Source of the DNA: a candidate division TM6 bacterium GW2011_GWF2_38_10
Lineage (GTDB): Bacteria > Babelota > Babeliae > Babelales > RVW-14
Length of the DNA stretch: 61,881 nt
Reading direction: 5' to 3'
Assembly (NCBI GenBank): GCA_000992305.1
Contig: LBTY01000008.1
Location: forward strand, 889-62,769
The translations under genes and the position numbers were made by a program. The notes under the pieces were generated by a model. That model was not told where the DNA came from and searched no databases. It saw only the letters and a list, made by a program, of their open reading frames with translations. Positions 4,979 through 29,864 of this stretch are shown here, piece after piece; positions within the stretch are counted from its first letter, which is position 1; each line of letters begins with the position of its first letter.

Positions 4979-7534
4979 TTAAACTACCGGATTATAAACA
5001 AGATTCCCGCTTAAAAGAACCCGAGCCCCTGAAAGCATCGTAACATCACAATCATGTTCAGGATTAACCCCATCACCAAAGATAATTGACTTACCAGTGG
5101 CGGGAATAAGTTCCTGCTTAAACTCTGTATTAAAAATATCAAGATTATTTGTATAACGCCCAAGCAAATGCGCACCATCGTCTGGTACCCAATGGACATT
5201 TTTTATACCTGGCATACTATCAAATGCAATCCCCGTATCAGTAAGCGAAACGCCATCAAATGCATAAATTTTAATGTCGTTAGTATACCCAACAGCAAGA
5301 TACTCACTATTGGCAAACCAATCAACCGACATCACTCCCGAAAGCGCAACCGAAACTTCTGTAGCCCCAAAATCACTTCCCGTCCATTGATACACCGTAA
5401 CGCCATTGTCACCACGGGCGGCAGCAATCCAATTACCATCAGGCGACCAAGCAACGTGCTTGCACCCTGTCACATTCTCTTTAGTTTTAAATAAGGTCAT
5501 CGCGCCATTTTTAGCAGAGTCTTTGTACACACGAATTTCTTCTGGCGATCCATCATCGAATAATGCTGGCACCACAGGCCACCCATCAGCTCCAAAACCA
5601 GGAAAGCCAAGCGCCACATAATAATCATCCCATAAATCTGGCGCCCATGAAATTGAGTTGCTAATAGCACCAATGTCACTATTGGTTACATTGGTGACCG
5701 AATTATCATTACGATTGAAACTATATACATAAAGCTTTTTATCATAATAATATGAAGATTCATCCCAACTATCCGCTTCAAACCCGCCTATGCTAATAAA
5801 ATCACCTTCTGGCGACCATACAACCTTATTGATAAACTCACTTAAAGACGATACGGAACCATCTTTAACCAAGGTAAGACCACTCACACCAACAGAATAA
5901 ATATACCATCGTCCATCATAAACGTAATAGCCCCCCATTAAATCACCATTTCTTCCCGTTCCCACCACAACGTAAGCGCCATCTGGCGACCACGCAATTG
6001 AAGTTACATAGCGAGAAAAATAAGTATCATAATCGTAATTTATTACACTTCCTTGTAGCGCAAGTGTAATTCCATCAAAAGAATACAATTGTATAGAATG
6101 CTGCTTATTTAAACCCTCTTCCCCATAGCCTACCAAAAGCATGCTCCCATCAGGAGACCATGATGCAACACGAATGTTTGGAATATTTTGCGTTAGTGTT
6201 TTTATTGGATTATCAAAACCTTCAAATAGTTCAGCCGAATGGTGATCTAAATGTGATAAGCCATCAAAAAGAACTTGGCCACGCATAAACTGTAAATCAT
6301 CTCCCGTTGTTATAAAATCAGCACCATTAAACATTAAACGCGATGTTGCAGAACCCAACTGTAATCGTTCAAGTGCTGCTGACTTTGGCGCAAAAGAAAA
6401 TGTTGCTCCAGTATCAAAATAAAGTGTTCCATGTGGCGCAATACTCAACAATCGAGGAGATTGATACAACAATGCACTTGTTCCACTCACCACCACATCA
6501 TTGTGCACAAAAATAGATCCTTGATCAATCTGCAAATCATTACTAAGGTTGAGAACGACATTGTCCAAGCACAATTTTCCTGAAGCATCGCATTCCAACG
6601 CTGGTGTTGCAGCTCCCATGCGTTCAGGAGATATAATCATGTTACGCAGCGTCACCGTACTATTAGCATCCGCCATAAGCTGCGCATGCGGCTCAAAATA
6701 CACCGTCCGTCCGCCACCATCAATAACTATATCGCCAGCACAATGAATTACCTTCCCCGCAGAAATTGATGTATCACCCTGAAGCAGTAACGTCGCACCA
6801 TCGACAGAAAAAATGTTTGTATTAGGTAAAACACCATGTAACGCATTGGTTATTGCCTGTTGAGCAACAAGAGCATCGGTACTAAGTGCAACATCGTAAT
6901 TAAAATCAAAAGCTATATTGTCTAACGTCACCAAACATCCTGAGGCGCCATTATCAATAAGTGGTAATGTATTAGTTGTACCCGTTGTTTTTAACGTCAT
7001 ATTTTTCATAACAATTATAGCATCACTTGCTGCTTTTAATTGTGCATCATCCGCAAATATAAGCTTATTACCATTACCATCGATCGTTATTGTCCCCTGC
7101 AGCGTAAGAATTTTACTCGCCGGAATCGTACAATCACCCTGCAACAACAACGTTGCACCATCAGCTTCAATGGTGCCGCCGCTCAACAACTGCACACCCG
7201 GAGCCAATACTAAATCATTTTCAAGCACAAGGCTTGCGGTATCATTCAAATCAATATCACCACTAACAGGTTGTAAAAGATCGAGATATGCAACATGACC
7301 AGAATCCAAAGAAAAACCATGATTAAAATATATCACACCACAATAGTGATTATTATTCTCCAAAGCAACTTGATCATTGTATACAAGACCAGATGGGGCA
7401 TATGTTCCAGAATCAAGTGTTGTTGAGGTATGGGATGACAATTCCCACGCTCCACTATTAATTATTTGCGCAGAAAGAGTAAAAACTCCCGCGCTTAAAA
7501 AAACTCCAGCAAATAACCACAAAAATTTCTTCAT
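4979..7534 (-). CDS. Exported scaffold + WD40 beta-propeller protein (paralog 1)
   Basis: Signal peptide MKKFLWLFAGVFLSAGVFTLSA; scaffold motifs IDGxG, AQL, DNVVL and HNDVVV; repeated WSPDG blades. Confidence 0.8.
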   Translation of the reverse strand: MKKFLWLFAGVFLSAGVFTLSAQIINSGAWELSSHTSTTLDSGTYAPSGLVYNDQVALENNNHYCGVIYFNHGFSLDSGHVAYLDLLQPVSGDIDLNDTASLVLENDLVLAPGVQLLSGGTIEADGATLLLQGDCTIPASKILTLQGTITIDGNGNKLIFADDAQLKAASDAIIVMKNMTLKTTGTTNTLPLIDNGASGCLVTLDNIAFDFNYDVALSTDALVAQQAITNALHGVLPNTNIFSVDGATLLLQGDTSISAGKVIHCAGDIVIDGGGRTVYFEPHAQLMADANSTVTLRNMIISPERMGAATPALECDASGKLCLDNVVLNLSNDLQIDQGSIFVHNDVVVSGTSALLYQSPRLLSIAPHGTLYFDTGATFSFAPKSAALERLQLGSATSRLMFNGADFITTGDDLQFMRGQVLFDGLSHLDHHSAELFEGFDNPIKTLTQNIPNIRVASWSPDGSMLLVGYGEEGLNKQHSIQLYSFDGITLALQGSVINYDYDTYFSRYVTSIAWSPDGAYVVVGTGRNGDLMGGYYVYDGRWYIYSVGVSGLTLVKDGSVSSLSEFINKVVWSPEGDFISIGGFEADSWDESSYYYDKKLYVYSFNRNDNSVTNVTNSDIGAISNSISWAPDLWDDYYVALGFPGFGADGWPVVPALFDDGSPEEIRVYKDSAKNGAMTLFKTKENVTGCKHVAWSPDGNWIAAARGDNGVTVYQWTGSDFGATEVSVALSGVMSVDWFANSEYLAVGYTNDIKIYAFDGVSLTDTGIAFDSMPGIKNVHWVPDDGAHLLGRYTNNLDIFNTEFKQELIPATGKSIIFGDGVNPEHDCDVTMLSGARVLLSGNLVYNPVV

Positions 7535-7578
7535 ATCATAATCCTTTTTAAACGAAACATATTTTCACTCATAATTAT

Positions 7579-9595
7579 TCAACTATGGGCAGGATCAACA
7601 ACCACGCTCCCAGAAACATGCAATGTTGTAGCCGCGGAGTAGCGAACATCACAATCCTGTGTTGCATCAGTACCACCGTTACCCAAGGTCAATGCCGCAG
7701 CAGGAGCACCGGATGTTATATAATTGTAGGTGACGGGGAATGTGCATAAATAATAATTTGATTTATAAGCCGCAATTTTTTCACCAGCCGGATGCCAAGC
7801 AACCAATTTATAAGGATTCCCATCAGTCGAAACTGTTTGAACAATTGTTGCCTGCCCGTTCCATATGCGATAAACCAAGAAATTATTATAACTTTGCGAT
7901 GATCTACCAACCAAAAGATACCGTGAATCTACTGACCATGACAAAGAATGTGCATATTGCGGCATAGATCCAGTTACACGTGCACCAAATGTTCCATCTT
8001 CTTGATTCATGTAATAAATATAGAGAGCATCTGTCGTACTAATCATTGAATAGGTTGCGGCAAGATAGGTTCCATCCGGTGACCATGTTATAGATGTTGG
8101 AGGAAAATTTCCACTCTTTCCCAATGCTTGAGTCAAAGTCCAGTTACCACTAACATCTACTGTCCCAACCTTAAGCCTATAATCATCAACCGATCCCCAA
8201 CTCAAAGCAAGGCATCTTCCATTTGGTGACCACGCTAAAGCAAACACTTGCGAAACACCGCTATGCGTTACAACCGTGCCCAACGTTTTATTTTCATTAA
8301 CGGGATAAATATAGAAATTAGCATCTCCACCAACAGCCAACCATTTTCCATCAGGTGAAAAAGCTAAAGAATAAATGGAATCTCCAACATTTTTCGCTTC
8401 TACTAAACTACAATTTCCAAGGCTATCAATACGATATACACTTATTAAGTTACTTCCTGAAGGAAAGACAAAACAATCACTATCAGGAGTCCATGCTATT
8501 AAATTAACCCCATCATTTGTAAAACTATTCATGAAGAATCCACCCATAGCTGCGGAAAATACAGAAGTTGTAAGATCGGAAGCTTTAAAAACATTCAAAA
8601 AATAAGGAGAGCCAAGACCTATTGCTAACCAAGCTCCATTAGGAGACCATACATTTGCTCTTATCAAACTATACGAAGTATCAGTTCGATCTCCTACTAC
8701 AGGAGTCGCAATCGCCGAGGTAACATTCACATCAACCGTGTTGTTTAACCCCAGCTGCCCCCGAGTTAACCGTAACCCCTGACCCACAACATCAAGCGAT
8801 GCATTGTCAACTATCAACCGTGATGAAGCATCTGCAAGCTTCACAAAACCACTATCATTCGCATACGGAGCATATAAAAATGTTGAACCATCTTGAACAT
8901 ACAAACTACTTTGTGAAGCAATATAAGCCGGCTTAGTAGAGCGATCTTCCAGTAACAACAACATCATGATGAAAAAAATGCTGACCACCCTTTAAATCAA
9001 GATCATAGCCAAGTGAAAAAATAACATTATCAAAACATAATTTGCTACTCCCTGAACAATCTAATTGCGTTTTGCTAACAGCAATACGATCAGTGCTAAT
9101 AATCATGTTGCGTAAGGTCACCGTAGCATTTGCATCTACCATCAACTGCGCATGCGGCTCAAAAGTCAACGTCCGCCCGCCGCCGTCAATCACCATATCG
9201 CCGGCGCAATGAACAACCTTACCCGAAGGGATTCTTAGATTACCCCCAAGCGTAAGCCCCTTGCCCGCCGATGAAAAATAACCGCCATCAGAGATAGTTA
9301 CGTGGCTATCAAGTGCAAGATCACGCGCTAAGTGCACCGCGCCCGTGCCCCGCAGATCAATGGCGCCAGAAACAGATGTTACGCAATCCATCGTAATGGC
9401 AGCACCCGGCAACACCGTAAACCCATCGGCAAAATAAACAAACCCCTGAGCCTGATCGCCGTCACGAAAAACATGGTTATACTGTTGAAAGGCAACCCCC
9501 GTTGTGCCATCAATTGACTCGGCACGAACCCCAATGGTCAACAATGCTACTCCCAGCAATGCGCCACAACAAAACATTATGCTACGCTTGAGCAT
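7579..9595 (-). pseudogene. Exported scaffold + WD40 protein (paralog 2), frameshifted near 8943-8946
   Basis: ORFs 8933-9595 and 7579-8988 are consecutive halves collinear with paralog 3. About five codons (the SALxY motif) are missing at the junction. Confidence 0.8.
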
Positions 9596-9657
9596 ACAAT
9601 CTCCTTCCTCTTTTTTTTAAATATTCCAGACAGGCCTTTCCCGTCTTTTTAAACTAG
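9578..9657 (-). repeat. Shared start and upstream sequence of WD40 paralogs 2 and 3
   Basis: TATGCTA(C/T)GCTTGAGCATACAATCTCCTTCCTCTTTTTTT...CTTTTTAAACTA recurs at about 18201-18281. Confidence 0.8.
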
Positions 9658-9687
9658 GTTAGCAATTTTTTTTCATTTTTTCATCCG

Positions 9688-11283
9688 TTACGCTTTCTCA
9701 ACTAACCATTTTAACGAAACACTCTTTCCCTTAGTAAAATAAAAGCTAATCCCAACATGCATAACCGGCAGCTTGCTCTCTACCACATACTTATAGGAAT
9801 AATTATTTTTTTTAATTTGCGCTAGCGCCGCCGCTGGATTACGATCCTTTTTAAACTCAATCACGAACACATTCGTTGGCGTAGTGATAACTCCATCAAT
9901 AAATCCAAGGTCGGTAGCTTCTTCAACAAACATATGCACACCCAACAACTTGCAGATAGTAAAAAAGGTTGCCTGATAGCACTTTTCTCGATTTACAATA
10001 ACGTTGTGCGGGATCAAACGCATAAAGTTTTGCATATGCATTAAAAACGTATCCACATCGCCGGCAAGCAACGCCCGACGAAACTTAGCAATCCAATCAG
10101 CAAATGCATCAAGCGAAACCTGCACAAGCTCAAGCATAATCTGCTCGGTGCACGAACGACGAACTTCTTCATTGGGATAGTGCAACCAATACATCGAAGC
10201 AAAATCATCATATTCTTTAATGGTCAAATATCCCGTCTGCAAAAACAATACCAACAAATTATCATACAATCGTGCAATATTAAAATTTTGAATCGATGAT
10301 GATGAAATTTTTTGCAATTCAAGCGTGAGTAACTGCTCCTTTAATTCGTTGCGCTTCTCTTCTGGCGCATCGGTGAGCGCGGTGAGCATAAATTTTGGCG
10401 TACCGCTTGAAAACCAATAGTTTTCTATTTTTTTATCATCTAAACAATATGCAATCGAAAAGGGATTGTATACCTTTTCGCCTTGATTTGAAAACTTAAA
10501 CCCGTTATACCATCGCTTAAGCTCTGCAAGAGCTTGTTGATATGTCCACCCCTTTGCTTGTGCCAACGCATTAATGTGTTCCTTAAAATTTTCTTCCAGT
10601 TCTTGTTGTGTATAACCACACATGGTTGCCACATCTTCATTCATAGAAAGATCTTTAAGATTATTCAACTCCGAAAAAAGTGAAACCTTAGAAAATCGGC
10701 TCACACCGGTAATAAATAAAAAACGCATGCAGCTGCCAACATTATTCCCCTTGAAAACACCATAAAGGCTGCGCATAAGTTGTTGCATTTTTTCAACCAT
10801 CGCTTTATCATCAATGTGGTCCAAAATCGGCTTGTCATATTCATCAATAATCACCGCAACTGGGCCATGCTTTTCATGCAATTTTATAATCAATTGAGCC
10901 AAATAAGTTCCAGGAGCAATTGATTGATCAATGCTTACACCATATTTTTGTGCACAATTGTGTAACGTAACTTTTACGTTATCGATTAATTCCGTATCAG
11001 TTTTATGACTCACCTCGGCAAAACTGATATGGATCACCGGATGTTTTTTCCAATCATACTCCATGCAGCTTATTGCAAGGCCATCAAATAATTCTTTTTT
11101 ACCCTGAAAAATAGCTTCTAATGTTGAACAAGTTAATGACTTGCCAAAACGACGAGGCCGTGATAAAAAAAATGCACCATAGTTTTTAATAAGCTTGCAA
11201 AGATGAGCAGTTTTGTCAACATATGCACACCCCTGATTAATCAATAATTCAAAGCTTGAAATCGATACGGCAAGTTTTTTCAT
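9688..11283 (-). CDS. AAA-ATPase-like protein with PD-(D/E)XK nuclease domain (copy 2, divergent)
   Basis: YVDKT, RPRRFGKS, IIDEYDKP, WYNGF, YNPFS and GFID...VIEFK. Likely start is MKKLAV at 11283. Confidence 0.88.
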   Translation of the reverse strand: MKKLAVSISSFELLINQGCAYVDKTAHLCKLIKNYGAFFLSRPRRFGKSLTCSTLEAIFQGKKELFDGLAISCMEYDWKKHPVIHISFAEVSHKTDTELIDNVKVTLHNCAQKYGVSIDQSIAPGTYLAQLIIKLHEKHGPVAVIIDEYDKPILDHIDDKAMVEKMQQLMRSLYGVFKGNNVGSCMRFLFITGVSRFSKVSLFSELNNLKDLSMNEDVATMCGYTQQELEENFKEHINALAQAKGWTYQQALAELKRWYNGFKFSNQGEKVYNPFSIAYCLDDKKIENYWFSSGTPKFMLTALTDAPEEKRNELKEQLLTLELQKISSSSIQNFNIARLYDNLLVLFLQTGYLTIKEYDDFASMYWLHYPNEEVRRSCTEQIMLELVQVSLDAFADWIAKFRRALLAGDVDTFLMHMQNFMRLIPHNVIVNREKCYQATFFTICKLLGVHMFVEEATDLGFIDGVITTPTNVFVIEFKKDRNPAAALAQIKKNNYSYKYVVESKLPVMHVGISFYFTKGKSVSLKWLVEKA

Positions 11284-11362
11284 CGCATTCCTTTTCATCA
11301 TAACATCACTGTCCTATCCCGCAAACACATAGACAAGCGTAAGTATATCACATAAATTTCAG

Positions 11363-16277: not shown

Positions 16278-18218
16278 TTACACAGCGTTATAAACAACAT
16301 TACCACCAACAATAACACGCGCATTAGATAAAATGTTTACCGAACAATTATTGCTTGCATATTCTCCATCTCCAAAAGAAATCTCTTTATTAATAGCCTT
16401 TCCCGAATACGTTACCGGATACAGCTCAAGATCATTAGACCCAGACTGTTTTCCAATGGCACAATATCCCCCATCAGCTGATACCGATATTTGTGCTGAA
16501 CTCGATAGTGCGAAAGATGACACATATGCCGCCTGCCCACCAACAAATGAAAACCAACGCACCGTATTATTCCCAACACTCAATAGAAAATTTCCACCAG
16601 ACACCCAATCTATTCCTGAAATTGACGAACCAGAAACAGTTGATGTTAATTGCAACTGAGCATTGGCAAAAGAATAAATACGTAAATTCGAACTCCCAAT
16701 CGCTACATAATTACCATCGGGAGACCATGCTAACGTCGAAACAGATCCATCACTAACAGTCTGGACCCAATCAAAAGACTCATCAACAAGTCGATACAAA
16801 CGCAGATCAGAGGCACCGACCGCTAAATACCGTCCATCACGAGACCACTTCAAACTATTCACACTACTTCCCACATTCACCGTCTGCAAATACGTAAGTT
16901 GCCCGTATTTAAAAGAATATAATTCAAGCCCAACCGTATCGGTATAATATTTACCAATCGCTAAAAATCTACCATCAGGAGACCAAGCAACCGGCCGCAC
17001 CTGATTACTAATGGTAAACGTTTGCTTGGACTGTAACAATCCATCTTCTAATGCATATAAAACAAGACGAGGTGTACTATCTCGTCCAATGGCAAGATAG
17101 TTACCATCGGGAGACCAGGCAACACAATGAACGCTATTAGCACCACCGAGTGATTGCTTATGCACCAACTGCCCACCTTCTAAAGCATAAAGATGCAACC
17201 TATCAGTACCAGATAATGTACCAACCGCAACATAACGCCCATTAGGAGAAAATGCTAAGGTAAAAACTGATACAAGGTTAACTGATTGAAGCTTTGATGC
17301 ACTTACCACAGATAGATTGAAATCACGCTGCTCAATAGATACTAAATCATCAAAATACACGTCCCCATTGGTAAGTTGCATACCAGTCCCAGTTGCTTTA
17401 AGCGTTGCACCATCAAAAAATAATGAAGCTGTTTCATCAACAAACTTTAACAAATCCCTATGCGAAGTACATGGAGAAAATGAAAATGTTGTTCCATAAT
17501 CAAAATATAATTGACTTGCAGGAGCAACAAAACTTGGCACCGACGCCGCATACACAAGCGCACTAGTTCCGGTCACCACCACATCATTATGGAAAAAAAA
17601 CTGCCCTTTATTCAAATATAAATCATTACCCAAATTGAGTACCACATTATCAAAACAAAGCTTACTCAACGACGTAGAAACGTGAAGAGCCGGTTGGCCA
17701 GGGTACGATCGATCAACCATTAACACCATATTTTTTAGAGTAAGCGTACTATCAGTATCCAAAAATAATTGCGTATCGGGCTCTAAATGAAGTGTATTTC
17801 CATGCCCATCAATAACCATATCACCCGCACAATGCACGACAACCCCTCGCGGAACCGTAACATCAGAATGTAAAGCGACACCACTCCCCTCAGACAAAAT
17901 ATATCCCCCTTGGGTAATGGTACTTTGATTATCAAGCGCAAGACAACCTTCTAACACAAGATTACCAGTTCCTCGCAAATCAATGCTTCCTGCTACAGGA
18001 TACAAACAATTCACAGTCGCAGTTGCATTATTAAGCACCGTAAAACCATCATCTAAATATACAAACCCCTTGGCTTGCTCACCATCACGAAAAACATGAT
18101 GATCTTCTTTAAAAATAACACTCGACGTTCCATCAAGCGACGCCGCAGAAAGCCCAATAGTCACCAATGTTATTCCCAACAATGCGCCACCCCAAAAAAC
18201 TATGCTATGCTTGAGCAT
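16278..18218 (-). CDS. Exported scaffold + WD40 beta-propeller protein (paralog 3)
   Basis: Signal peptide, SLDGT...KGFVY...IDLRGTG scaffold, about seven WSPDG-type blades and a conserved C-terminal cap. Confidence 0.85.
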   Translation of the reverse strand: MLKHSIVFWGGALLGITLVTIGLSAASLDGTSSVIFKEDHHVFRDGEQAKGFVYLDDGFTVLNNATATVNCLYPVAGSIDLRGTGNLVLEGCLALDNQSTITQGGYILSEGSGVALHSDVTVPRGVVVHCAGDMVIDGHGNTLHLEPDTQLFLDTDSTLTLKNMVLMVDRSYPGQPALHVSTSLSKLCFDNVVLNLGNDLYLNKGQFFFHNDVVVTGTSALVYAASVPSFVAPASQLYFDYGTTFSFSPCTSHRDLLKFVDETASLFFDGATLKATGTGMQLTNGDVYFDDLVSIEQRDFNLSVVSASKLQSVNLVSVFTLAFSPNGRYVAVGTLSGTDRLHLYALEGGQLVHKQSLGGANSVHCVAWSPDGNYLAIGRDSTPRLVLYALEDGLLQSKQTFTISNQVRPVAWSPDGRFLAIGKYYTDTVGLELYSFKYGQLTYLQTVNVGSSVNSLKWSRDGRYLAVGASDLRLYRLVDESFDWVQTVSDGSVSTLAWSPDGNYVAIGSSNLRIYSFANAQLQLTSTVSGSSISGIDWVSGGNFLLSVGNNTVRWFSFVGGQAAYVSSFALSSSAQISVSADGGYCAIGKQSGSNDLELYPVTYSGKAINKEISFGDGEYASNNCSVNILSNARVIVGGNVVYNAV

Positions 18219-18286
18219 ACAATCTCCTTCCTCTTTTTTTTAAAACCATTCCAACCAAACTTCTCACACCTTTTTAAACTAAACTA

Positions 18287-20086
18287 TCACTTTTTTGTTC
18301 CTCGTTTTTTGCTCTGTTTTTTAGGCTCTGCAGAGTAAGCTCCCTTACTTATTAACATACCCGAATTGTACACCTGGTACATCCATGCCATATGCTTGCC
18401 TTGAAACGCAATACCTATTTTGGCCACCACTAAAATCCCTCGCCGCTGCATTTCAAGATCATACGCATATTCATCAATCTGCTCACGAGCTCCTTTGGCA
18501 TACGTTGATAATGGTTTTTTTTCAGAAAGCTTGCGTCGCTTAAACTCAATAATCATCCCCATTTTTTTTGTATCCTTGGGAAAAATACATACATCATAGC
18601 GGCCGTATCCACTTTCACGATTTGATGCTGTTTCATACGTATGACCAAGGCTGGCAAAAATCCCCAACGCAAAAGCCTGATAGGCATTTTCCCCTTTATC
18701 ACCAACATCAAAAAAACTTAAACTTTCTAAAACCGCTTGCTCAAAATTTTGCAAAAATTCCTCAACATCACCCGTTTTAATCCCATTAATCATGTGATCA
18801 AAATAAACACGACTTGCGGGAACTTCATTAAACCATGACGTAACCATTGTTTTTAACGAATCCAAAACTTCAAAATTAGGAGCAATAAGCGCCGCTGTTG
18901 TTTTACCCACCATATTTGTGCGACTCTTCCACGTAAGGTATCCAGTAAACACTAAAAATGACCACAACGCACTTGAATCATTGTACACATCGCGGAATAC
19001 AATCGTATCGCTAATTGTTTTTTCAATCGAACCACCATCTAATATTCGCAGCAAATTCTCTTTATCCTCTGCCGATGCCTTACGCATAGATTTTTCAATA
19101 AGCATATGCACGCCCGTGTTGATCCAATGAGCACCAAGAGCCTTTTTATTAATGCATTCAATAATTGACCAAGGATTATAGACCATCGTAAAAGACTCAT
19201 GCCCCTGCACATCGTACTTTGGCAAACCAACACGATAGCCATTGTACCATTCACGAACTTTTTCTCGATCAATCTGCGTTTGAAAATAATTAAGCACTGC
19301 TGTCACTTCATCTTCTAAAAAACCAAATTTATCGGCAAACGCATCATCAAGCAACGAGTATGTTGCTGCATTATTCATCCCCGAAAAAAGGCTATCTTTG
19401 GCAATGCGCAAAATACCCGTTATCACCGAAAATTCAAGATAATTATTGTCTTTCAAGCCAGCGCAAAAAAAATTGTACATAAAATTTTTTATTTCTTCAT
19501 AATAATTAAATTCAAAACCAGCTTGCATTGGCGCATCATATTCATCGATGAGAATAATTACTTTTTGATTATAAACATTATAAAGATGCTCTGAAAGAAA
19601 TTTCAACGCTTGTTCATAATGTGTTTGAGACGCTTTTTGAGTTATCAACGCCTGCCAAATTGACTGATTATGCTCATCAATACATGAATTTTGAAGCACA
19701 ACACCATGACGTTTACATTCGGCAGTAATTAAAAGCGTTATCGCTTCGTAGCATCCTTGCCACGTCGAACTTTTTATCCCCTTAAACGAGATAAAAATAA
19801 CAGGATATTGCCCTTGCTGCGCCATAACTTCAGGATAGTTTGTTATGGCAAGACCATCAAACAAATGACGATTATCAGATTGTTTTGGATTTTTTTCAAA
19901 AAAATATTGAAGCATCGACATATTCAATGTTTTTCCAAACCTGCGGGGGCGCGGAAGAATCGTTACCGGTTTTGCTTCATGCAAAACATCGTAAATAAAC
20001 ATTGACTTATCAACATAGTAATAACCACGCTCAATCAATGTTTTAAAATCGTGAACACCTAATCCAAGTTCTTTTTTCATCATCAT
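18287..20086 (-). CDS. AAA-ATPase-like protein with PD-(D/E)XK nuclease domain (copy 3, close paralog of copy 1)
   Basis: Same motifs as copy 1, with long identical peptide stretches in the ATPase part. Confidence 0.9.
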   Translation of the reverse strand: MMMKKELGLGVHDFKTLIERGYYYVDKSMFIYDVLHEAKPVTILPRPRRFGKTLNMSMLQYFFEKNPKQSDNRHLFDGLAITNYPEVMAQQGQYPVIFISFKGIKSSTWQGCYEAITLLITAECKRHGVVLQNSCIDEHNQSIWQALITQKASQTHYEQALKFLSEHLYNVYNQKVIILIDEYDAPMQAGFEFNYYEEIKNFMYNFFCAGLKDNNYLEFSVITGILRIAKDSLFSGMNNAATYSLLDDAFADKFGFLEDEVTAVLNYFQTQIDREKVREWYNGYRVGLPKYDVQGHESFTMVYNPWSIIECINKKALGAHWINTGVHMLIEKSMRKASAEDKENLLRILDGGSIEKTISDTIVFRDVYNDSSALWSFLVFTGYLTWKSRTNMVGKTTAALIAPNFEVLDSLKTMVTSWFNEVPASRVYFDHMINGIKTGDVEEFLQNFEQAVLESLSFFDVGDKGENAYQAFALGIFASLGHTYETASNRESGYGRYDVCIFPKDTKKMGMIIEFKRRKLSEKKPLSTYAKGAREQIDEYAYDLEMQRRGILVVAKIGIAFQGKHMAWMYQVYNSGMLISKGAYSAEPKKQSKKRGTKK

Positions 20087-21346: not shown

Positions 21347-23272
21347 CTAATCAGCGCCAGCTATAAACTTAATAAATCCAAATCCTTGAGATAGCCCCCA
21401 CTTTGCTGTAGAAAGCCCAATATTAACCATTCTACTAGTAATAAACCCTCTTACAATGGAACTCCCGGCCATTAATAAACGTTGCTTTAAGGGCGCATCA
21501 GGATACATTAAATATCCTTCCATAAACGGAATCATATTTGTTAAAGGAAAAGAAAAATACCACGGCATAGCAGGTATCGACGACAAAGAAGGCCATAACG
21601 ATGTAATTTCATTAAAAATTCCTGACCAAGCCCATGAAGAAGCCGTACTCAATGCAACACTCATCCATGGCTCCCAACTACTAACCGCTTCACCAACATT
21701 TTCAACAGCCTGTTGATGTACATCAGCATCTGATACTATAACTTTTTGATTATCACCTTTTTCAACAACACTATTGCTTGGCAATCCGATTAATTTTGGC
21801 TCACCCAGATTATCTTGCTCATCTAAAAAAAGCGGTTCAGGTAACATAAGATCCTGAGCAACCCCAGGCGCTACATCATCATGATCTAAAGATTCCGTCA
21901 CAATATTTTCTATTTCATTCATATCAAAAGCTAGCGATTCTCCTTCAACTTCTAAATCTTGTTCTTGGCATAGGTTCTGATAATCATCCAAAGAAATTTT
22001 ATCAAGGCTTTTCGCCCATTTTTTATCAAGAATATGATCATTATCAACATCCTTACATGGATCACACGCTTTTTGTCCCATAGCTATTTTAAACTCAGCC
22101 TGAGCATAAGCACCACGCAACTTTTTCATTTTCTTATCATAAAAATATTCTATTAGATTCTTATTGGCTACAAAACCAGGTGCGTTTTTTTTCTTAAGAT
22201 CATCATAAAAATCATCAAATTTTTTAATTTTAAGGTTAATACAATGACGCTGCGCATACTCTTCTTCAAGCGTATTTCCAAAAAAAATGATTTTCACTAT
22301 CATAGCTTTTTGCAAAAGAACATTTTGCAAATTTTCTTCTTTTTTTCCGCTTACGGCACTTACCAATGCGCAAGTAACCTCATCAGCAATATCTTTTGTT
22401 ACAGCATTTAAAGAAATTGAACGCTCCGTGAGCCATGCATGCACAAAATCAACAGCGGCCTGGCTATCCATACATTCCCAAAAAGATCCACTTGCCATGA
22501 TCATAAACGCCTGATTTCCTGTAATATTCATTTGATTAACACAGGGCTCAGTTAATAATGCTGATTCTTTTTTTCCTAAACCCAAAAATCCTGTTGATCC
22601 TTTTTTATATGCCGCCAACCCAAATCCACGAGAAATAGAAACAAAATCACCACAAAAATTGTTAGCATTCCCAAGGAACACAAAACCTGGAATTTGTTTC
22701 ACCCTATAAAAAGATTCACCAGCCTGTTCGATTCGTGTACGCTCCTGAGGGAAATATATTTTATGATCCTGCGTAAGGTCACGCGCAATAAGGTTTAAAT
22801 TACCATTATCAACTTCCTGATCAAGATATGCAACAACCGCACGTGAGTCTCCAAGGTTTACCGTATACACCGCATTATCTTTAATGGCAGCAAAAAGCGC
22901 AGTCGCGCCAAATGCATCACCTTCTTGAATGTTTTTATTAATTTCCGTATCAATATCCAAAAATAATGTAGTAAAAAACTTTTGCATAGTGGTCAGAATA
23001 GTTTGCGGCGCCAACTCTTGTAAAAATAATTCACGCATCTTTACGTGGCACTGCCCTGCAATAGCCTCAGAAATTGAAGAATTATCAAAACCAACAACAG
23101 TATCAACCAATGAAAAAAGCGCAAGAGAATCTTCTTTCTGATCAAAGGAATAACTCATCGTTGGATTATTAAAGCCAGCACTTCCAACCGACAAGCCTAA
23201 ACAACTGTGGAAAAATAATAAACAAACAGAAAACAAGCTATAAAAACTCGTACGTTTCATGATAACCTCCAC
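21347..23272 (-). CDS. Exported PP2C (PPM)-like phosphatase-fold protein
   Basis: GATA, NLGDSRAV, LTQDHK, ERTRIEQAG and ISRGFG motifs; N-terminal signal peptide; hydrophobic C-terminus. Confidence 0.8.
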   Translation of the reverse strand: MEVIMKRTSFYSLFSVCLLFFHSCLGLSVGSAGFNNPTMSYSFDQKEDSLALFSLVDTVVGFDNSSISEAIAGQCHVKMRELFLQELAPQTILTTMQKFFTTLFLDIDTEINKNIQEGDAFGATALFAAIKDNAVYTVNLGDSRAVVAYLDQEVDNGNLNLIARDLTQDHKIYFPQERTRIEQAGESFYRVKQIPGFVFLGNANNFCGDFVSISRGFGLAAYKKGSTGFLGLGKKESALLTEPCVNQMNITGNQAFMIMASGSFWECMDSQAAVDFVHAWLTERSISLNAVTKDIADEVTCALVSAVSGKKEENLQNVLLQKAMIVKIIFFGNTLEEEYAQRHCINLKIKKFDDFYDDLKKKNAPGFVANKNLIEYFYDKKMKKLRGAYAQAEFKIAMGQKACDPCKDVDNDHILDKKWAKSLDKISLDDYQNLCQEQDLEVEGESLAFDMNEIENIVTESLDHDDVAPGVAQDLMLPEPLFLDEQDNLGEPKLIGLPSNSVVEKGDNQKVIVSDADVHQQAVENVGEAVSSWEPWMSVALSTASSWAWSGIFNEITSLWPSLSSIPAMPWYFSFPLTNMIPFMEGYLMYPDAPLKQRLLMAGSSIVRGFITSRMVNIGLSTAKWGLSQGFGFIKFIAGAD

Positions 23273-23367
23273 GCTATCACACGAAATTTATAATAAATAA
23301 CTAATCCATTTTAACAATAGTACCATGCACAGGCCAAACCATCAACCGCCCCACCTCTGGCAAACAT

Positions 23368-23412: not shown

Positions 23413-23433
23413 ACTGTAAATAACAGATAATAA

Positions 23434-26400
23434 TTATCGATAAGAAACATTCCCCCGTACACAAACCTGCGTATCTCCCAACATGCAAACATCAACGCCT
23501 TGAGCCTCATCATCGATTCCTGCGTCAATACGAAGCGTGCTCGACATATCAATATTCGCTGGATCAAGTTTAACAAAACGATCTATAATGAGCACAGCTC
23601 CAGCTCCTCCTGCAAGTGGTGTATTTTGCGCTACGGCAAAAACAGCATTATCATAACGCCATGCAATATCTTGAACCGCAGCAGGTAATTGAAGTGAGGC
23701 ATGCTCCCGCAATGAATAATCCGCAGAATAAAATTCATACAATCGCGCATAGGAGTCACTCCCAACCGTAGCAAGCCAAAGACCCTCACCATCCCAGCGC
23801 GCACAGCTAAACGAACCGCTCACTGTTTTACGGTGAGTCAATACATTACCAACTTTATCATACTCGTAAATATAGAGCGTTGTTCCCTGTACGAACGCAA
23901 TAAATCGATCATCGTAACTCCATGAAACAGCCCCCATAGAAATCGCTGCACTTATAAAAGAATTCACTTCGGTCAACGTATTAAGAACCCGATTAAACTG
24001 ATAAATTTTAAACGGACGAGGACTTCCATCACCAGCTCTTCCTGTCACCGCAATATAATCTCCAGTATGTGACCATGCACAATCAGCAGGAAATAGATAC
24101 TCACCTTCCATAAACCGAACATGTGCAACAAGAGTAAACATATTCTCAGGAAGAGCCAAAGGATCAAAGGCATAAACACGCACATTTTGGTTTATAAGGC
24201 TCTCTGGCTCACCTGGAAATCGAATGGGGAAAATACCTGTTACAGCAAGATATGCTCCATCAGGCGACCACGATAATCCATTTACCGCAGGAATAGTATC
24301 ACGTACATACTGAGGTGAATTCCACATATCCCTAAAGCCAAATGACGTTAAGGGCTCTAACTGATCTCCATTACGCTGGTACACACGTACATCGTGTCTG
24401 CTATCTATAAATCCAGTCATTGTTTCATCGGGCCAAATACCAGCGGTAACGAGCGTTTGCCCATCTGGCGACCAACGCAATGCATAAACACCATAATTTT
24501 CACCTGAACTAGAAAAACGCACCTCATCCCTAAGAGAAATTGTTTGCGCTTGATCATCATAAGCATATAAAAAAATATGGCCAGCCGGATTACCAAGCGC
24601 TGCATGCACCATGCTTGCAGCTAGGTATTCTCCACTCATATTCCAATCAACACGCCAAGCTGGAAAAACAACGGGGAAATTATCATACGAATCACGGATA
24701 AGTAAGGAACGATCATCACGCAATGGCGTATTTATAGGCTGCCAAACAATAAGCGTTTTCGTATCATCTGCCGTAACTAAAACCTGACTATCCATACTCC
24801 ACGCCAAAGCTTTTGTGCTATTGAGCATATTAATTGGATGAGCTAATGTACGTAAAAACCCATTGCTATGGCTAAACAACTCAAGCTGCTCAGCGGATTT
24901 ACTACTTCCAACTGCAACAAAATTACCATCCCGTGAAAATGCTGCAGCATAGACCGTTCGTCCATCATCATACAATGACTGAGCCAATTGAATCTGAGCA
25001 ATCGAAAACTCATACATCCGCAATGCCCCTTGAACATCATCCGACCCAACAAGAAGGTATGAACAATCGGGCGACCAACTTACCGCATACACATGCGATA
25101 AAATACTTGTACTCGGCCCAATAGCTAAAGAACTCCCATCAAAAATAAATACACGAAGCTGGTTGGCTAGTGCATCCGACCCTATAGCAAGATATCGCCC
25201 GCATGACGACCACGCAATTGAAAAAATTTCACCATCAGCGTCTTGCGTTAATAATTGCGTTAATGTTTCTCCATTAAAGGTATAGATAATCAACTCTTGA
25301 TTGCTTGTACTACACCCGGCCGCAAGATGCCGACCATCACTTGACCACGTTACGGCATTTACCGATGATGCTCTATTGTTTGAATCTTTAAGCACAAGAC
25401 CATTTCCATTCCAATAATACACATACACATCGCCCCCAGCTGTTCCACAGGCAATATATTGCCCATCAAACGACCAGGATATGGACTTAACAACAGAACC
25501 AACAGATACATGTGCTATGAGGGTTAGGGATGCGCTCTCGCATTCATACACACGTAATTGCGTACTAACCGTCGCTGAACCAACTGCAACATAACGTCCA
25601 TCAGGAGAACATGCAACAGCACTTGGAGCATTACTAAATGTAACCGTGATAGTCTTTGAAAAATCGTTAACGATAGCGCCCGCACGATCAAAAAATAACT
25701 GTCCACACGTAAGATGCATTCCAGTAAACGTTGTTTGCAATGACGAACCATTCATAATAAGCGCCGCAGAATCATCGGCTAATGTAATAAGATCATCCCG
25801 CGCCGAAGATGGTGCATACGAAAAGGTTGTTCCATGATCAAACAAAACGGTTGATTGAGCCATGACACAACTTAGTGAGGGTGATGAATACACAAGTGCA
25901 TGATTCCCAGAAAAAACAACATCATTATGAAAAAACAAAGATCCACGATTAATTACCCAATCATCGCCAAGCACTATTGTTGCATTATCCAACGTTAATG
26001 ATGTAAGTGGAGAACAAAGAGAGATGGCTGGCGCCCCCGACATAGAATCCGCTATTTTTATGGTAATATTGCGCAGCGTCACCGATGTTTGATTATCAAG
26101 AAAAAGCTGCGCATGAGAAGCAAACTCAAGTGTATTACCCCCACCATCAATAACCATATCACCCTTTACATGCAACACCTGGTTTGCAGGAATAACAAGA
26201 TCCCCCGAAAGATGAATATTCTTACCATCGGATACTATATACCCACCGCTTGATAACGTTACATGTGAATCAAAAATTACATCGCGCTCAAGCTCAAGTT
26301 CTCCTGAAACACGAAAATCAATCCCCCCCGCAACGGTTATTTGCGATCCCATTATTGCGTTCGCCCCCGGTTCTATGGTAAAACCATTGCGAAGGGCAAC

Positions 26401-26541
26401 CGCGCCACGAACAAAATCGGCATTATGCAAAACATGGTGATCTTGCACGTAGTGAACAGTAGTTGTACCATCAATACTTGTTGCCATAAGCGACCGCAAC
26501 AAAACACCAATGGCCATAGCAACATATACACAATAATTCAT
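23434..26541 (-). CDS. Exported scaffold + double WD40 propeller protein (paralog 4)
   Basis: SIDGTT scaffold, roughly 14 WSxDG-type blades, C-terminal DV...V.VRGNVSY cap. Confidence 0.85.
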   Translation of the reverse strand: MNYCVYVAMAIGVLLRSLMATSIDGTTTVHYVQDHHVLHNADFVRGAVALRNGFTIEPGANAIMGSQITVAGGIDFRVSGELELERDVIFDSHVTLSSGGYIVSDGKNIHLSGDLVIPANQVLHVKGDMVIDGGGNTLEFASHAQLFLDNQTSVTLRNITIKIADSMSGAPAISLCSPLTSLTLDNATIVLGDDWVINRGSLFFHNDVVFSGNHALVYSSPSLSCVMAQSTVLFDHGTTFSYAPSSARDDLITLADDSAALIMNGSSLQTTFTGMHLTCGQLFFDRAGAIVNDFSKTITVTFSNAPSAVACSPDGRYVAVGSATVSTQLRVYECESASLTLIAHVSVGSVVKSISWSFDGQYIACGTAGGDVYVYYWNGNGLVLKDSNNRASSVNAVTWSSDGRHLAAGCSTSNQELIIYTFNGETLTQLLTQDADGEIFSIAWSSCGRYLAIGSDALANQLRVFIFDGSSLAIGPSTSILSHVYAVSWSPDCSYLLVGSDDVQGALRMYEFSIAQIQLAQSLYDDGRTVYAAAFSRDGNFVAVGSSKSAEQLELFSHSNGFLRTLAHPINMLNSTKALAWSMDSQVLVTADDTKTLIVWQPINTPLRDDRSLLIRDSYDNFPVVFPAWRVDWNMSGEYLAASMVHAALGNPAGHIFLYAYDDQAQTISLRDEVRFSSSGENYGVYALRWSPDGQTLVTAGIWPDETMTGFIDSRHDVRVYQRNGDQLEPLTSFGFRDMWNSPQYVRDTIPAVNGLSWSPDGAYLAVTGIFPIRFPGEPESLINQNVRVYAFDPLALPENMFTLVAHVRFMEGEYLFPADCAWSHTGDYIAVTGRAGDGSPRPFKIYQFNRVLNTLTEVNSFISAAISMGAVSWSYDDRFIAFVQGTTLYIYEYDKVGNVLTHRKTVSGSFSCARWDGEGLWLATVGSDSYARLYEFYSADYSLREHASLQLPAAVQDIAWRYDNAVFAVAQNTPLAGGAGAVLIIDRFVKLDPANIDMSSTLRIDAGIDDEAQGVDVCMLGDTQVCVRGNVSYR

Positions 26542-26555
26542 AAACTCTCCCTACT

Positions 26556-29500
26556 CTAATTACACACAACATTACCACGAATAGATACTTGCGCTCCTGC
26601 ATGCACCGCAACATCAAGCTGACCATCATTATGCGCTTGATCAGTTTTTAATACCAATGCAGCGTGATTATCACAATACCCAGGATCATTATCCTCATAT
26701 AGATCGTATAGCAATAATTGGGCCCCCGTAGTAAATATAACCGCCACAATCCGCCCATTGGGATGAAAAGAAGCACAAGTAGGGGCATCCCCAACCATCT
26801 GAACAATATGAGGTCTACCGTAATACCAGGATTCATAATTGTTGCTAGGCTTTGCTGGCATAACTTGATTTAATGCATTCATTTGATCAAGAGAACGAAT
26901 AATAAGAGCATTTTCCCCAGAGGTATCTGGCCGCTTATTTAATAAACTACCAAAATGGTATCCATCATGCGACCAAACTAAAGAAGTTGCAATAGGCGCC
27001 CCCCCGAAATCACTATATGCCGCCAAAGGAGCTAGCTGTTCGTTTTCCCACGTATAAATACGTACAACCGAATAATTCAAATAACCATTACCAAATGCAG
27101 GATCAGAACCCGTAGATTCCCCCGAAACATATCCACCAAAAGCAATATAACGCCCATCGTTACTCCATGCTATTGCCCGAATGGCTGGAGCATCTGTTTC
27201 TGACTGAGTTGTACGCGCATACGGCTTTGACGTAATTGCCGTAAGCGTATCGGCCTGCCGATCAAATTGATACATTCTAAACGCATCTTTGTTTCCTATT
27301 GGAAATCCAGCATTATATCGAGGAACCCCTCCTCCCATTGCAACATACTGCCCATCAGGCGACCATGCAACTGCATATACGGTTGTATTCAAACCCGTCA
27401 TACCACGCGATGCCACAACTGTAAGCGAGCTTCCCTCAAAAGAATAAACCTGTAAATCGGCTGGATAACTATCAAGCGTAACAGGACTCCTGCCAACAGC
27501 AGCAAGATACTGGTCATCGTACGACCAGTCAAGAGATTTTACCTGTCCACCATAATGTATAGAAGCTACAGGGCTTAACGTATGGTTTTCCAATACCTCA
27601 TAAACCCGACACGTATGGGTGTTAGAAAACCCACCAACAGCAGCAGCAGCTTGCCCACCGACTGCAAGATAGCGCCCACTATGCGACCATGATAGTGCAT
27701 GAACACCATCGTCAGCATTCGTTGAAGACGAATAATACACCGCATCCTGCAATGTTAAAGTATGTGTTTGATGATCATATGCATACACATAAACCTGTTC
27801 AATATTTTGCTGACCACACCCAACGGCCAGCAAGTTCCCATCGGGCGACCAAGCAACTGCACGACCAATAAGCGTTGCTCCATGGCCTTGCGTAGAACGT
27901 AACGTTACGGTATATGCATCATGCTCTGAACTATTAGTGCGCTTAAAAACACGTAAGCAGCCTAAAGAGTCCCCAACAAGCATGTATAACCCTGCAGCAT
28001 CCCAATGCACGGTATTAACCGTATTGCTTGTGGTTACAGGATATGTACCAAGGACAAACGAAGTAAGAAATAAACCCGCATTTTCATCAAAAGGAGTATG
28101 AATCGCATAAAGCGCATTTTGTGTATATCGATAACTTTTAATTTGCCCGCCTTGTTCATCACAGCCAACAGAAAAAGCTGACCCATCAGCATTCCATGAC
28201 AAGGAATACGCAACACCCCCGACATCAGCCGAGCAACACAATGAAAGGGGAGCAGCTAAATCTGAAAAATGATAACAATAAACGACATGATCATCACCCC
28301 CAACAACCACCACGCGCCCATCCGACGAAACATCAGCACTCAATAACCCAGCAGACAATGATGCAACCGCCGCAGTAGAAGCAAGCCCTGTTACCGAATC
28401 AAACTGCAACACCTGCACTTTATTGCCAACACCAGCATAATTACATGCAATAAAAATAACATCTTCGTTTGCTCCCCATACCACAGAAGAAACATCCCCT
28501 CCTGCATCAAAAAAACCACCTACTTGAACAAGAGCGGTTCCGGTAAAGCTATAAGCACTTACCTGCTGGGCATTATCCTTTGAACCAACAACAAGATATG
28601 TTCCATCTGGCGACCAAGACAATGAGGTTACCGCCGCACCAAGAACAACCGGTGTAATCGCAGCACTAAGGGCTGTTCCAGTAAACACATAAATACGCAG
28701 CGTCCCATTCTCCTGCCCTACGGCAAGATAACAACCATCAGCAGACCACACCAATGCGTTAACTGCCGATGTAATTGATACCGGCGTTATCACGGGAGTC
28801 ATCACTTCATCAACAATCGTCTCAATGTGCAATAATCCATTAGCCTGGCCTAATGCAACATAACGCCCACATGGCGACCACCGCGCAACCAAGACAGGCG
28901 ACTGGGTTGTTGTATTGTACACTTTATTACTTGCAATATCATTTTCTATAACTACTGGCCGAATATCATTCCACACGGTCCCTGCAGAAGCATCAAAAAG
29001 TACCGCATTATCGCAAAGGAGCGCACCACGAGAAATTTCCATCCCTGTAAACGTTGTTTTAAGGCTCGCACCATTGCACACCAACCGCGATGATGAATCT
29101 TTTAAGTAGAACAAATCGTTGGCTGCTGTTGCAGGGGCATAGGAAAAGGTTGTACCAAGATCAAAGATAAGCTTGCTTGACGCTGCAACATAACTTTGCA
29201 ATGGAGAGCGATACACCAGCGCCCCAACACCAGAGACAGCAACGTCATTATGAAAAAAAATATGACCATTATTACAATAAAAATCGCTTCCCAACGACAA
29301 AACAACATTATCAAAAGCAACCTTACTCGTCCCCCCACTCAAGGCAATAGCCGGAGAGCCAGGAGCCGTGAGGCCTGTTTTGATAACCATATTACGAAAT
29401 GTTACCGTTGCATGCGTATCAACAAATAATTGGGCAAAATCATCAAAATATAACGTATGCCCATTGCCATCAATAACCATATCGCCCATACAATGAACTA

Positions 29501-29864
29501 CATTACGTTCCGTCATATGCACGTCATTACCAAGGAGAATAGCTGCCCCTTCGGCAGCAATGGTTCCACGAGACGCAAACGAGGCATTACCCTGCATCAA
29601 AAGATCACGCTCAAGAATAATCTTTCCAGAGCGATTAAGTTGGATAGGCCCTTCAACCGCAAAATTAGTACCTAACGAAACACTCCCTGCTGCGGGGACT
29701 GAAAATCCTCCCCCCAAAAACACAAGTCCTCGTGCAAAATCCCCATTAGCAAATGCGTAGGATGTTGTTTTATGAATAACCTCAGAACGTCCATCAAGAC
29801 TTACCGCTCCGCCTGAGGAAAAAAAATTCAATGCAAAAACGCATGCTATCGCAAAACGCTTCAT
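26556..29864 (-). CDS. Exported scaffold + double WD40 propeller protein (paralog 5)
   Basis: Signal peptide MKRFAIACVFALNFFSSGGA, SLDG scaffold, many WSPDG blades, same C-terminal cap. Confidence 0.85.
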   Translation of the reverse strand: MKRFAIACVFALNFFSSGGAVSLDGRSEVIHKTTSYAFANGDFARGLVFLGGGFSVPAAGSVSLGTNFAVEGPIQLNRSGKIILERDLLMQGNASFASRGTIAAEGAAILLGNDVHMTERNVVHCMGDMVIDGNGHTLYFDDFAQLFVDTHATVTFRNMVIKTGLTAPGSPAIALSGGTSKVAFDNVVLSLGSDFYCNNGHIFFHNDVAVSGVGALVYRSPLQSYVAASSKLIFDLGTTFSYAPATAANDLFYLKDSSSRLVCNGASLKTTFTGMEISRGALLCDNAVLFDASAGTVWNDIRPVVIENDIASNKVYNTTTQSPVLVARWSPCGRYVALGQANGLLHIETIVDEVMTPVITPVSITSAVNALVWSADGCYLAVGQENGTLRIYVFTGTALSAAITPVVLGAAVTSLSWSPDGTYLVVGSKDNAQQVSAYSFTGTALVQVGGFFDAGGDVSSVVWGANEDVIFIACNYAGVGNKVQVLQFDSVTGLASTAAVASLSAGLLSADVSSDGRVVVVGGDDHVVYCYHFSDLAAPLSLCCSADVGGVAYSLSWNADGSAFSVGCDEQGGQIKSYRYTQNALYAIHTPFDENAGLFLTSFVLGTYPVTTSNTVNTVHWDAAGLYMLVGDSLGCLRVFKRTNSSEHDAYTVTLRSTQGHGATLIGRAVAWSPDGNLLAVGCGQQNIEQVYVYAYDHQTHTLTLQDAVYYSSSTNADDGVHALSWSHSGRYLAVGGQAAAAVGGFSNTHTCRVYEVLENHTLSPVASIHYGGQVKSLDWSYDDQYLAAVGRSPVTLDSYPADLQVYSFEGSSLTVVASRGMTGLNTTVYAVAWSPDGQYVAMGGGVPRYNAGFPIGNKDAFRMYQFDRQADTLTAITSKPYARTTQSETDAPAIRAIAWSNDGRYIAFGGYVSGESTGSDPAFGNGYLNYSVVRIYTWENEQLAPLAAYSDFGGAPIATSLVWSHDGYHFGSLLNKRPDTSGENALIIRSLDQMNALNQVMPAKPSNNYESWYYGRPHIVQMVGDAPTCASFHPNGRIVAVIFTTGAQLLLYDLYEDNDPGYCDNHAALVLKTDQAHNDGQLDVAVHAGAQVSIRGNVVCN

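What the first reader, a model, noticed from the sequence alone, without database searches (positions are those of the whole stretch)
4979..29864. Family of five exported proteins with a variable WD40 propeller inserted into a conserved scaffold
Seen: all five have a signal peptide and a conserved scaffold of about 270 aa (GFTV, IDL, GDxVIDGxGxTLxF, AQL, DN, HNDV, TFSxAP, LxxG). Then come one propeller (paralogs 1-3) or two (paralogs 4-5) with little mutual similarity, and a conserved cap of about 35 aa (V...(A/T)xVxVxGxVxY). Inference: the alternating hydrophobic/Gly/Asn pattern suggests a beta-helix that resumes after the insert. That would make a constant stalk displaying interchangeable binding heads, a candidate adhesin or host-interaction system.
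Basis: partly seen in the sequence, partly recalled or inferred. Interest (0 to 1): 0.72.

Follow-up and report, generated by a model that had tools for sequence, protein, structure and literature searches.

The report
Swappable propeller heads on beta-helix rods
Five genes of an uncultured bacterium of the protist-parasitic Dependentiae group encode signal-peptide-bearing proteins predicted to be beta-helix rods with a WD40 propeller spliced into one loop; the propellers have likely been exchanged between gene copies by recombination, and the proteins likely act as a variable set of host-binding heads displayed on the cell surface.

Summary
Observation largely confirmed. All five genes are on the minus strand, in a Babeliales (Dependentiae) genome with 29 family ORFs. 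The cap is not a propeller blade. Insert-free paralogues run from scaffold straight into cap, and one folds as a single right-handed beta-helix (pLDDT 95.5; Z 16.3 to Vag8). Propellers also occupy a second loop. Scaffold and propeller trees conflict while scaffold and cap agree: gene 3 shares 82% scaffold but 36% propeller identity with its ortholog, and 68% propeller identity with another paralogue. Across the family the most variable blade positions map to WD40 top-face binding hotspots. In relatives the family co-occurs with an unnamed FapF-like barrel (40 of 47 genomes) and lies next to it (11 of 12 family genomes); this 89%-complete assembly lacks it. Corrections: gene 2 is frameshifted in the assembly but in frame in a related strain, gene 1 has extra rungs, and the propellers are one homologous family. 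No ligand, location or oligomer was shown. No paper describing the family was found; the scan noted the optional propeller and the barrel earlier on other genomes.

The parts
4979..7534 (-). Paralogue 1 (851 aa): signal-like N-terminus, beta-helix scaffold with partial duplication (about 6251-7378), one WD40 propeller (about 5126-6250), C-terminal end of the helix or 'cap' (4979-5125)
8933..9595 (-). Paralogue 2, 5' piece (220 aa): signal-like N-terminus and first two thirds of the scaffold; frame breaks at 8945/8946
7579..8945 (-). Paralogue 2, 3' piece: rest of scaffold (to about 8731), one propeller (about 7726-8730), cap (7579-7725)
16278..18218 (-). Paralogue 3 (646 aa): scaffold 17337-18119, seven-bladed propeller about 16425-17336, cap 16278-16424; mosaic gene whose scaffold and cap follow P0002 while the propeller follows the contig-21 paralogue
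23434..26541 (-). Paralogue 4 (1035 aa): scaffold 25675-26457, double-length propeller insert 23581-25674, diverged cap 23434-23580
26556..29864 (-). Paralogue 5 (1102 aa): scaffold 28998-29780, double-length propeller insert 26703-28997, cap 26556-26702; 14 bases upstream of paralogue 4, likely one operon

Best explanation
These proteins are predicted right-handed beta-helix rods with a WD40 propeller inserted into a loop just before the last rung; they are likely exported to the cell surface, where the propeller would act as a host-binding head that has likely been reassorted between gene copies by recombination. Steps: (1) Sec export, inferred from signal-like N-termini. (2) Outer-membrane passage, likely through a dedicated FapF-like barrel encoded in the family's operons in relatives; inferred from gene neighbourhood and co-occurrence, and the barrel is missing from this assembly. 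(3) Scaffold and cap fold as one beta-helix; predicted for an insert-free homologue and carried over by homology. (4) The propeller buds out as a split-domain insert; shown by sequence. (5) Recombination moves whole propellers between scaffolds; supported by trees, sharp identity breakpoints and silent sites. (6) The variable top face binds protist surface or vacuole molecules; inferred.
For: Insert-free members run scaffold into cap. The AlphaFold2 model of L013:14626-15570 has pLDDT 95.5 and pTM 0.93, with a confidence dip at the insertion loop. It aligns over residues 1-315 to Vag8 (Z 16.3, rmsd 4.8, 288 aligned) and Fap2 (Z 16.2, rmsd 3.9, 291). A second insertion loop after profile position about 85-90 is used by other members. 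Among 58 single-propeller proteins, mean identity is 46% for scaffold, 30% for propeller and 36% for cap, and the AU test rejects each part's tree for the other (p 1e-55 and 1e-43, 2000 replicates). Half-versus-half control on 57 proteins: strong-branch conflicts are 0-1 within scaffold and cap, 0 within the propeller, and 1-7 between scaffold or cap and propeller. Reciprocal pairs exist, with silent sites moving the same way: G081 pair scaffold 59% aa / 0.61 fourfold difference, propeller 79% / 0.26; a G143 pair 88% / 0.41 versus 41% / 0.74. The three most variable of 36 blade offsets (-4, -6, +12) correspond to top-face hotspots R1, R1-2 and D-1 (PMC3419727). A strong barrel match is found in 40 of 47 genomes with a strong scaffold match, versus 8 of 104 without (my tally at E<=1e-10). 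The barrel is adjacent to a scaffold gene in 11 of 12 relatives of the same family. Atlas structure hits for it are Phenol_MetA_deg-type barrels, and it has a near-invariant PTG motif, as FapF has two.
Against: There is no direct evidence of surface location, expression or ligand. The barrel and its upstream giant partner were not found in this genome; it is 89% complete and 6 family ORFs break at contig ends. Six other scaffold-positive genomes also lack a strong barrel match. The genome has three secretin matches, so type II export is an alternative route. No anchor is visible in the five proteins. In 11 close paralogue pairs, offset -4 changed only at an average rate (0.21; range over offsets 0.04-0.36), and offsets -6 and +12 sit beside indel-rich loops that inflate entropy. 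Scaffold and propeller identities still correlate overall (rho 0.49). Kin are not independent, so co-occurrence statistics overstate. In the single-sequence model of gene 3 the cap was unresolved (pLDDT under 50), so cap packing in a propeller-bearing protein was not seen directly.
Confidence: 0.55

Rival explanations
1. They are released effectors: exported by Sec plus type II secretion or outer-membrane vesicles into the host vacuole or cytoplasm, where the WD40 domain engages host proteins and the beta-helix serves as carrier or secretion tag.
For: WD40, ankyrin and similar repeats in TM6 are proposed host-interaction domains (PMC4776705 passages). In Chromulinavorax 44% of proteins carry signal peptides and vesicles are seen in the food vacuole (PMC6561590 passages). 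The genome has three secretin matches. The five proteins show no anchor.
Against: Many members have no propeller, or are multi-module rods up to 4562 aa with coiled-coil repeats, in tightly packed operons with a barrel. That is the anatomy of a structure, not of diffusible effectors. Named propeller relatives were prokaryotic WD40 proteins at 23-38% identity, with no close host-like match among the 120 listed.
Confidence: 0.2
2. They form a protective coat whose exposed propellers vary to evade phages or host recognition and digestion; the variation is defensive rather than for attachment.
For: The family takes 5.8% of this small genome, the scaffold is under strong purifying selection (88-93% aa identity at about 0.4 fourfold difference in G143 pairs), and variation concentrates on one face. 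All of this also fits a coat under diversifying pressure.
Against: The family is found in only 51 of 151 phylum genomes searched. The variable positions match the binding hotspots of WD40 domains, and split-domain inserts are ligand-binding in RTX adhesins (PMC12077191 passages).
Confidence: 0.13
3. The beta-helix is a glycan lyase or hydrolase that opens protist coats, and the propeller is an accessory binding module.
For: Polysaccharide lyases and tailspikes are tied with adhesins among fold matches (PL6 lyase Z 15.6). There are very weak sequence matches to VexL (E 0.046) and Jun a 1 (E 0.12). Several Asp and Asn positions are conserved.
Against: No Arg, Lys or Glu reaches 60% conservation in well-filled columns of the 106-row alignment, and the only His is in the N-terminal part. 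No member passes a lyase family convincingly. Modules are repeated up to nine or more times in one chain.
Confidence: 0.07

Closest known systems
Type Va autotransporter passengers (Vag8 7akv, Fap2 9qe7, pertactin 2iou, TibA 4q1q, Ag43)
   Same: Right-handed parallel beta-helix behind a Sec signal; best fold matches, Z 12-16. That some passengers carry domains budding from helix loops is recalled, not tested.
   Different: No fused C-terminal barrel: the proteins end a few residues after the cap, and PF03797 was not found in the genome. Sequence identity 7-15%. The insert is a whole WD40 propeller that is exchanged between paralogues.
Split-domain RTX adhesins (Aeromonas AhLap; PMC12077191, passages read)
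   Same: A binding domain buds out of a host domain that resumes after the insert, including out of a beta-solenoid.
   Different: Those use type I secretion, Ig-like and RTX folds, and one giant gene; the word 'propeller' does not occur in that paper. Here the host is a Sec-exported beta-helix in dozens of paralogues.
Pseudomonas Fap system (FapF channel with FapB/C/E; PMC5557850, passages read)
   Same: Operon of Sec-exported subunits with a barrel. The barrel in relatives resembles Phenol_MetA_deg barrels, shares a PTG motif and often has a charged helical N-terminus. That FapF belongs to that Pfam family is recalled.
   Different: No sequence match of the barrel profile to FapF in the PDB. 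Substrates here are large folded beta-helix modules with inserted propellers, not short amyloid repeats. No C39 protease was noticed in the loci, though it was not searched for.
Two-partner secretion TpsA adhesins (EtpA, FHA)
   Same: Free beta-helix protein with a separately encoded outer-membrane partner.
   Different: No TPS secretion domain among Pfam hits. The partner is not Omp85-like by the Atlas.

Membership tests
Right-handed parallel beta-helix fold | Continuous three-stranded parallel coil | tested here: met
   Model pLDDT 95.5; residues 1-315 align to many beta-helices at Z 12-16; Atlas model of gene 3 agrees, TM 0.5-0.7
WD40 beta-propeller | Seven four-stranded blades with WD40-type repeats | tested here: met
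   PF00400 over cut-off in all five; 27 strands at residues 318-601 in the gene 3 model, consistent with seven blades; seven blades in the family alignment
Type Va autotransporter | C-terminal 12-stranded translocator fused to the passenger | tested here: not met
   All five end within about 10 residues of the cap motif; no PF03797 hit in them or in the genome (89% complete)
Two-partner secretion (TpsA/TpsB) | N-terminal TPS domain in the substrate | tested here: not met
   No haemagglutination-activity domain among Pfam hits of the five proteins or 106 modules
Two-partner secretion (TpsA/TpsB) | Linked Omp85-type TpsB transporter | tested here: inconclusive
   PF03865 search found nothing but also rang in no control genome; two Omp85 matches lie on C14 and C11, away from family genes
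Fap-type secretion | FapF-like barrel in the operon | tested here: inconclusive
   Present and adjacent in 11 of 12 family relatives and Phenol_MetA_deg-like by the Atlas; not found in this assembly; no sequence match to FapF
Fap-type secretion | Short amyloid-forming repeat subunits as substrates | tested here: not met
   Candidate substrates are 350-4500 aa beta-helix proteins
Pectate lyase-like enzymes (PL1, PL6) | Conserved catalytic base (Arg or Lys; recalled) with metal-binding acids | tested here: not met
   No Arg or Lys at 60% conservation in the 106-row alignment; the spatial clustering of conserved Asp residues was not tested
PF20585 Pectate_lyase_5 adhesive domain | Score over the curated cut-off (24.3 bits) | tested here: inconclusive
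   Gene 1 scores 19 bits; 16 of 106 modules hit at E<=0.01, best 6.1e-5, with bit scores not shown
Adhesin (functional class) | Surface exposure and ligand binding | not testable with these tools
   Needs experiment

The most novel reading that the evidence does not exclude
Babeliales carry an undescribed secretion-and-display system. A FapF-like outer-membrane barrel exports a kit of beta-helix modules (plain rods, multi-module rods, coiled-coil stalks and propeller-bearing rods) that stack into a heteropolymeric surface fibre. The WD40 heads are reshuffled between scaffolds by recombination and form a tropism repertoire for protist hosts; the five window genes are dispersed extra heads of that kit.
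Probability: 0.3. Interest if true: 0.85.

Novelty: new variant of a known kind. Interest (0 to 1): 0.66.

Why it matters
Dependentiae are widespread obligate parasites of protists, and host specificity is called an open question in PMC4776705. This family has 3248 clusters at 50% identity and no curated family model, and it takes about 6% of this reduced genome. It offers concrete, testable candidates for host recognition: isolated propellers can be expressed and assayed for binding. It also shows a beta-helix tolerating a 300-760 residue propeller insert at two different loops, with the insert exchanged as a unit. If the linked barrel is its exporter, this would be a new route of outer-membrane protein export.

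Tried and rejected
Cap as last blade: rejected. A 700-aa Phe-ending barrel seen near arrays in four genomes as dedicated partner: rejected, since it is in 150 of 151 genomes. Foldseek found no match at E<=0.001 in the PDB or in viral models, only weak beta-helix rows. Prophage or plasmid origin: no relative in viral contigs, plasmids or phages, at those tools' sensitivity. Range outside the phylum could not be scanned in named genomes, because the alignments were too diverse for that tool. Other insert types: among gaps of 150 aa or more in 154 top proteins, most looked like propellers or NSNA coiled-coil repeats by eye and motif counts; about ten gaps in P0037, P0082, P0095, P0143, P0175 and P0176 stayed unassigned. 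Expression: no RNA holder listed. The AU test was run with 2000 replicates only; a rerun with 10000 returned no output. No DNA repeats suggesting an invertase or cassette-switch site were seen in 4900-30000, only coding repeats and paralogy. Literature searches found no description of this family. The library lacks most subscription papers, including the 2023 Environ Microbiol review of Dependentiae seen only as a reference, and I opened no supplements; either could mention it.
Full report
Observation. Five paralogues lie on the minus strand at 4979-7534, 7579-9595 (split), 16278-18218, 23434-26541 and 26556-29864. All begin with a signal-peptide-like stretch and have no clear later membrane segment (hydropathy heuristic). 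Scaffolds are 39-48% identical and propeller regions 23-33%; scaffold BLASTP E-values are 1e-45 to 1e-80. Pfam gives WD40 and propeller families for the inserts and nothing over cut-off for the scaffold; NCBIfam gives nothing for it. Gene 1 has a partial duplication of the scaffold. Gene 2 is frameshifted at 8945/8946. Contigs of the possible source runs abut exactly there and do not bridge it, while one contig of a related strain bridges it with 14 more letters. So the break is an assembly gap or a recent lesion, and the gene appears in frame in a relative.

Organism and family size. Homologues are named Candidatus Babeliales, Dependentiae or TM6 where a taxon is given. The 1.05-Mb genome has 29 ORFs with the scaffold, 5.8% of its DNA. 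A 303-position profile finds it in 51 of 151 phylum genomes searched, including 12 of 12 of the same family, and in 3248 clusters at 50% identity. No relative was found in viral contigs, plasmids or phages.

The cap belongs to the scaffold. Several paralogues have no propeller and run from scaffold straight into cap. A profile of such C-termini recognises 4 of 5 window caps (gene 4 missed, E 0.033); a blade profile recognises none. An insert-free member of the window's subfamily, folded with a 106-row alignment, gave pLDDT 95.5 and pTM 0.93. It aligns over its whole length to right-handed beta-helices: Vag8 Z 16.3 (rmsd 4.8, 288 aligned), Fap2 16.2, a PL6 lyase 15.6. These are near ties, so the fold gives no function. 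Foldseek found no significant match. The single-sequence model of gene 3 resolved the propeller at residues 318-601 and left the cap unresolved, so cap packing in a propeller-bearing protein is inferred by homology. Among 132 non-redundant members, propellers sit either before the cap (profile position about 262, the window type) or after position about 85-90. Other members are plain modules, tandem multi-module rods, or carry NSNA-type coiled-coil repeats.

The heads are exchanged. I kept 58 single-propeller proteins of the window type. From 64 candidates I dropped 3 wrong architectures and 3 double-propeller proteins, genes 4 and 5 among them. Mean identities are 46% scaffold, 30% propeller and 36% cap. 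Only 14 of 55 splits are shared, and AU tests reject each part's tree for the other (p 1e-55 and 1e-43 with 2000 replicates). As a control on 57 proteins, the halves of the scaffold, and the scaffold and cap, conflict in 0-1 strong branches, and the halves of the propeller in 0. Scaffold or cap against propeller conflict in 1-7. Gene 3 is itself a mosaic: against P0002 it is 82/36/65% identical (scaffold/propeller/cap), and against its contig-21 paralogue 61/68/43%, with sharp steps at both borders. Fourfold-degenerate sites shift in the same direction in several pairs (0.61 vs 0.26; 0.49 vs 0.27; 0.41 vs 0.74), which faster protein evolution alone would not give. In a few of the 15 pairs tested they did not shift, and the lowest value is 0.26, so the events are old. 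Gene conversion of scaffolds and swapping of propellers cannot be told apart here; both reassort heads and stalks. Overall identities still correlate (rho 0.49).

The variable face. Of 36 blade offsets, -4, -6 and +12 relative to the WSPDG tryptophan have the highest entropy, both in all 58 proteins and in ten G143 paralogues. By the pattern (V/L/I)-R1-R2-(V/L/I) and the 16th, 18th and 34th residue spacing in PMC3419727 (first of six parts read), these are R1, R1-2 and D-1, the top-face binding hotspots; the mapping is mine. Against this, two of the three lie beside indel-rich loops, and in 11 close pairs offset -4 changed only at an average rate.

Export. The genome has two Omp85 and three secretin matches and no autotransporter barrel. 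In relatives the family forms long, tightly packed operons that include an unnamed 460-820 aa exported protein usually ending in Phe. The Atlas matches it to Phenol_MetA_deg-type barrels, and it keeps a PTG motif, as FapF has two (PMC5557850 passages); it has no sequence match in the PDB. At E<=1e-10, 40 of 47 scaffold-positive genomes have it, against 8 of 104 others (my tally). Within the mixed family f3 the counts are 9 of 15 against 6 of 40 (kin are not independent). It is adjacent to a scaffold gene in 11 of 12 relatives of the window's family. This genome lacks both it and the giant gene upstream of it; the assembly is 89% complete and six family ORFs end at contig edges. A second barrel near some arrays is a core gene (150 of 151 genomes) and was rejected as partner.

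Mechanism and rivals. Most likely (0.55) these are surface-displayed beta-helix rods with reassorted WD40 binding heads. The fold is predicted, the insertion is shown by sequence, the exchange is well supported, and export route and binding are inferred. Rivals are released effectors (0.2), a variable protective coat (0.13) and a glycan-degrading enzyme (0.07; no conserved Arg or Lys).

Comparison and novelty. It works like a split-domain adhesin (PMC12077191 passages) built on an autotransporter-like passenger, but it fails membership of type Va and TpsA. Papers on the phylum mention WD40 proteins or secreted repeat proteins only in general terms (PMC4776705, PMC6561590, PMC12172432; passages read), and six searches found no description of the family. 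Earlier unchecked notes of this scan recorded the optional propeller (e1-2072293) and the barrel link (e1-3573766 and e1-2072322) on other genomes. I read each after reaching the same point from my own calls, and they are not independent support. Verdict: new variant of a known kind, interest 0.66.

Noticed in passing
window 2923-4767, 9688-11301, 18287-20086 (all -): AAA-ATPase-like plus PD-(D/E)XK genes (PF09820 + PF08011) flank genes 1-3. In the genome 4 of 13 such ORFs lie within 500 bp of a family gene, against 19 of 640 other long ORFs (Fisher p 7e-4). Not seen as a shared neighbour in relatives' loci, so probably a common insertion hotspot.
   Followed up: partly
window 9413-9671 and 18036-18296: Genes 2 and 3 share their 5' ends and leaders (209 nt at 80%; same ribosome-binding context preceded by an A-run), pointing to a duplication or conversion that included the leader.
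   Followed up: partly
G000:C23:4117-6198 (L038): An unnamed 694-aa exported protein ending in Phe, with no Pfam hit, is present in 150 of 151 phylum genomes: likely a core outer-membrane barrel of Dependentiae.
   Followed up: partly
L062-L078, L096, L097, L105 (gene upstream of the barrel): Genes directly upstream of the FapF-like barrel often end in a shared motif with GDH(D/N), an aromatic residue and GxD, both in giant stalk proteins and in 160-330 aa proteins, including in genomes without the scaffold. It may be a barrel-binding or targeting domain.
   Followed up: no
G000:C9:3-1361, C24:10851-12053, C1:71981-73738, C3:10083-12797: Family members carry 11-residue repeats of the INSN(A/T)L type, resembling Asn-core trimeric coiled coils of fibres (resemblance recalled); several assembly breaks fall inside them.
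   Followed up: partly
window 21347-23272 (-): PP2C-type phosphatase (PF00481) with a signal-like N-terminus and a long acidic tail, directly downstream of gene 4; possible secreted effector.
   Followed up: no
G000:C3:12846-16469 (L034): A member whose propeller region lies N-terminal to a partial scaffold, a third arrangement.
   Followed up: no
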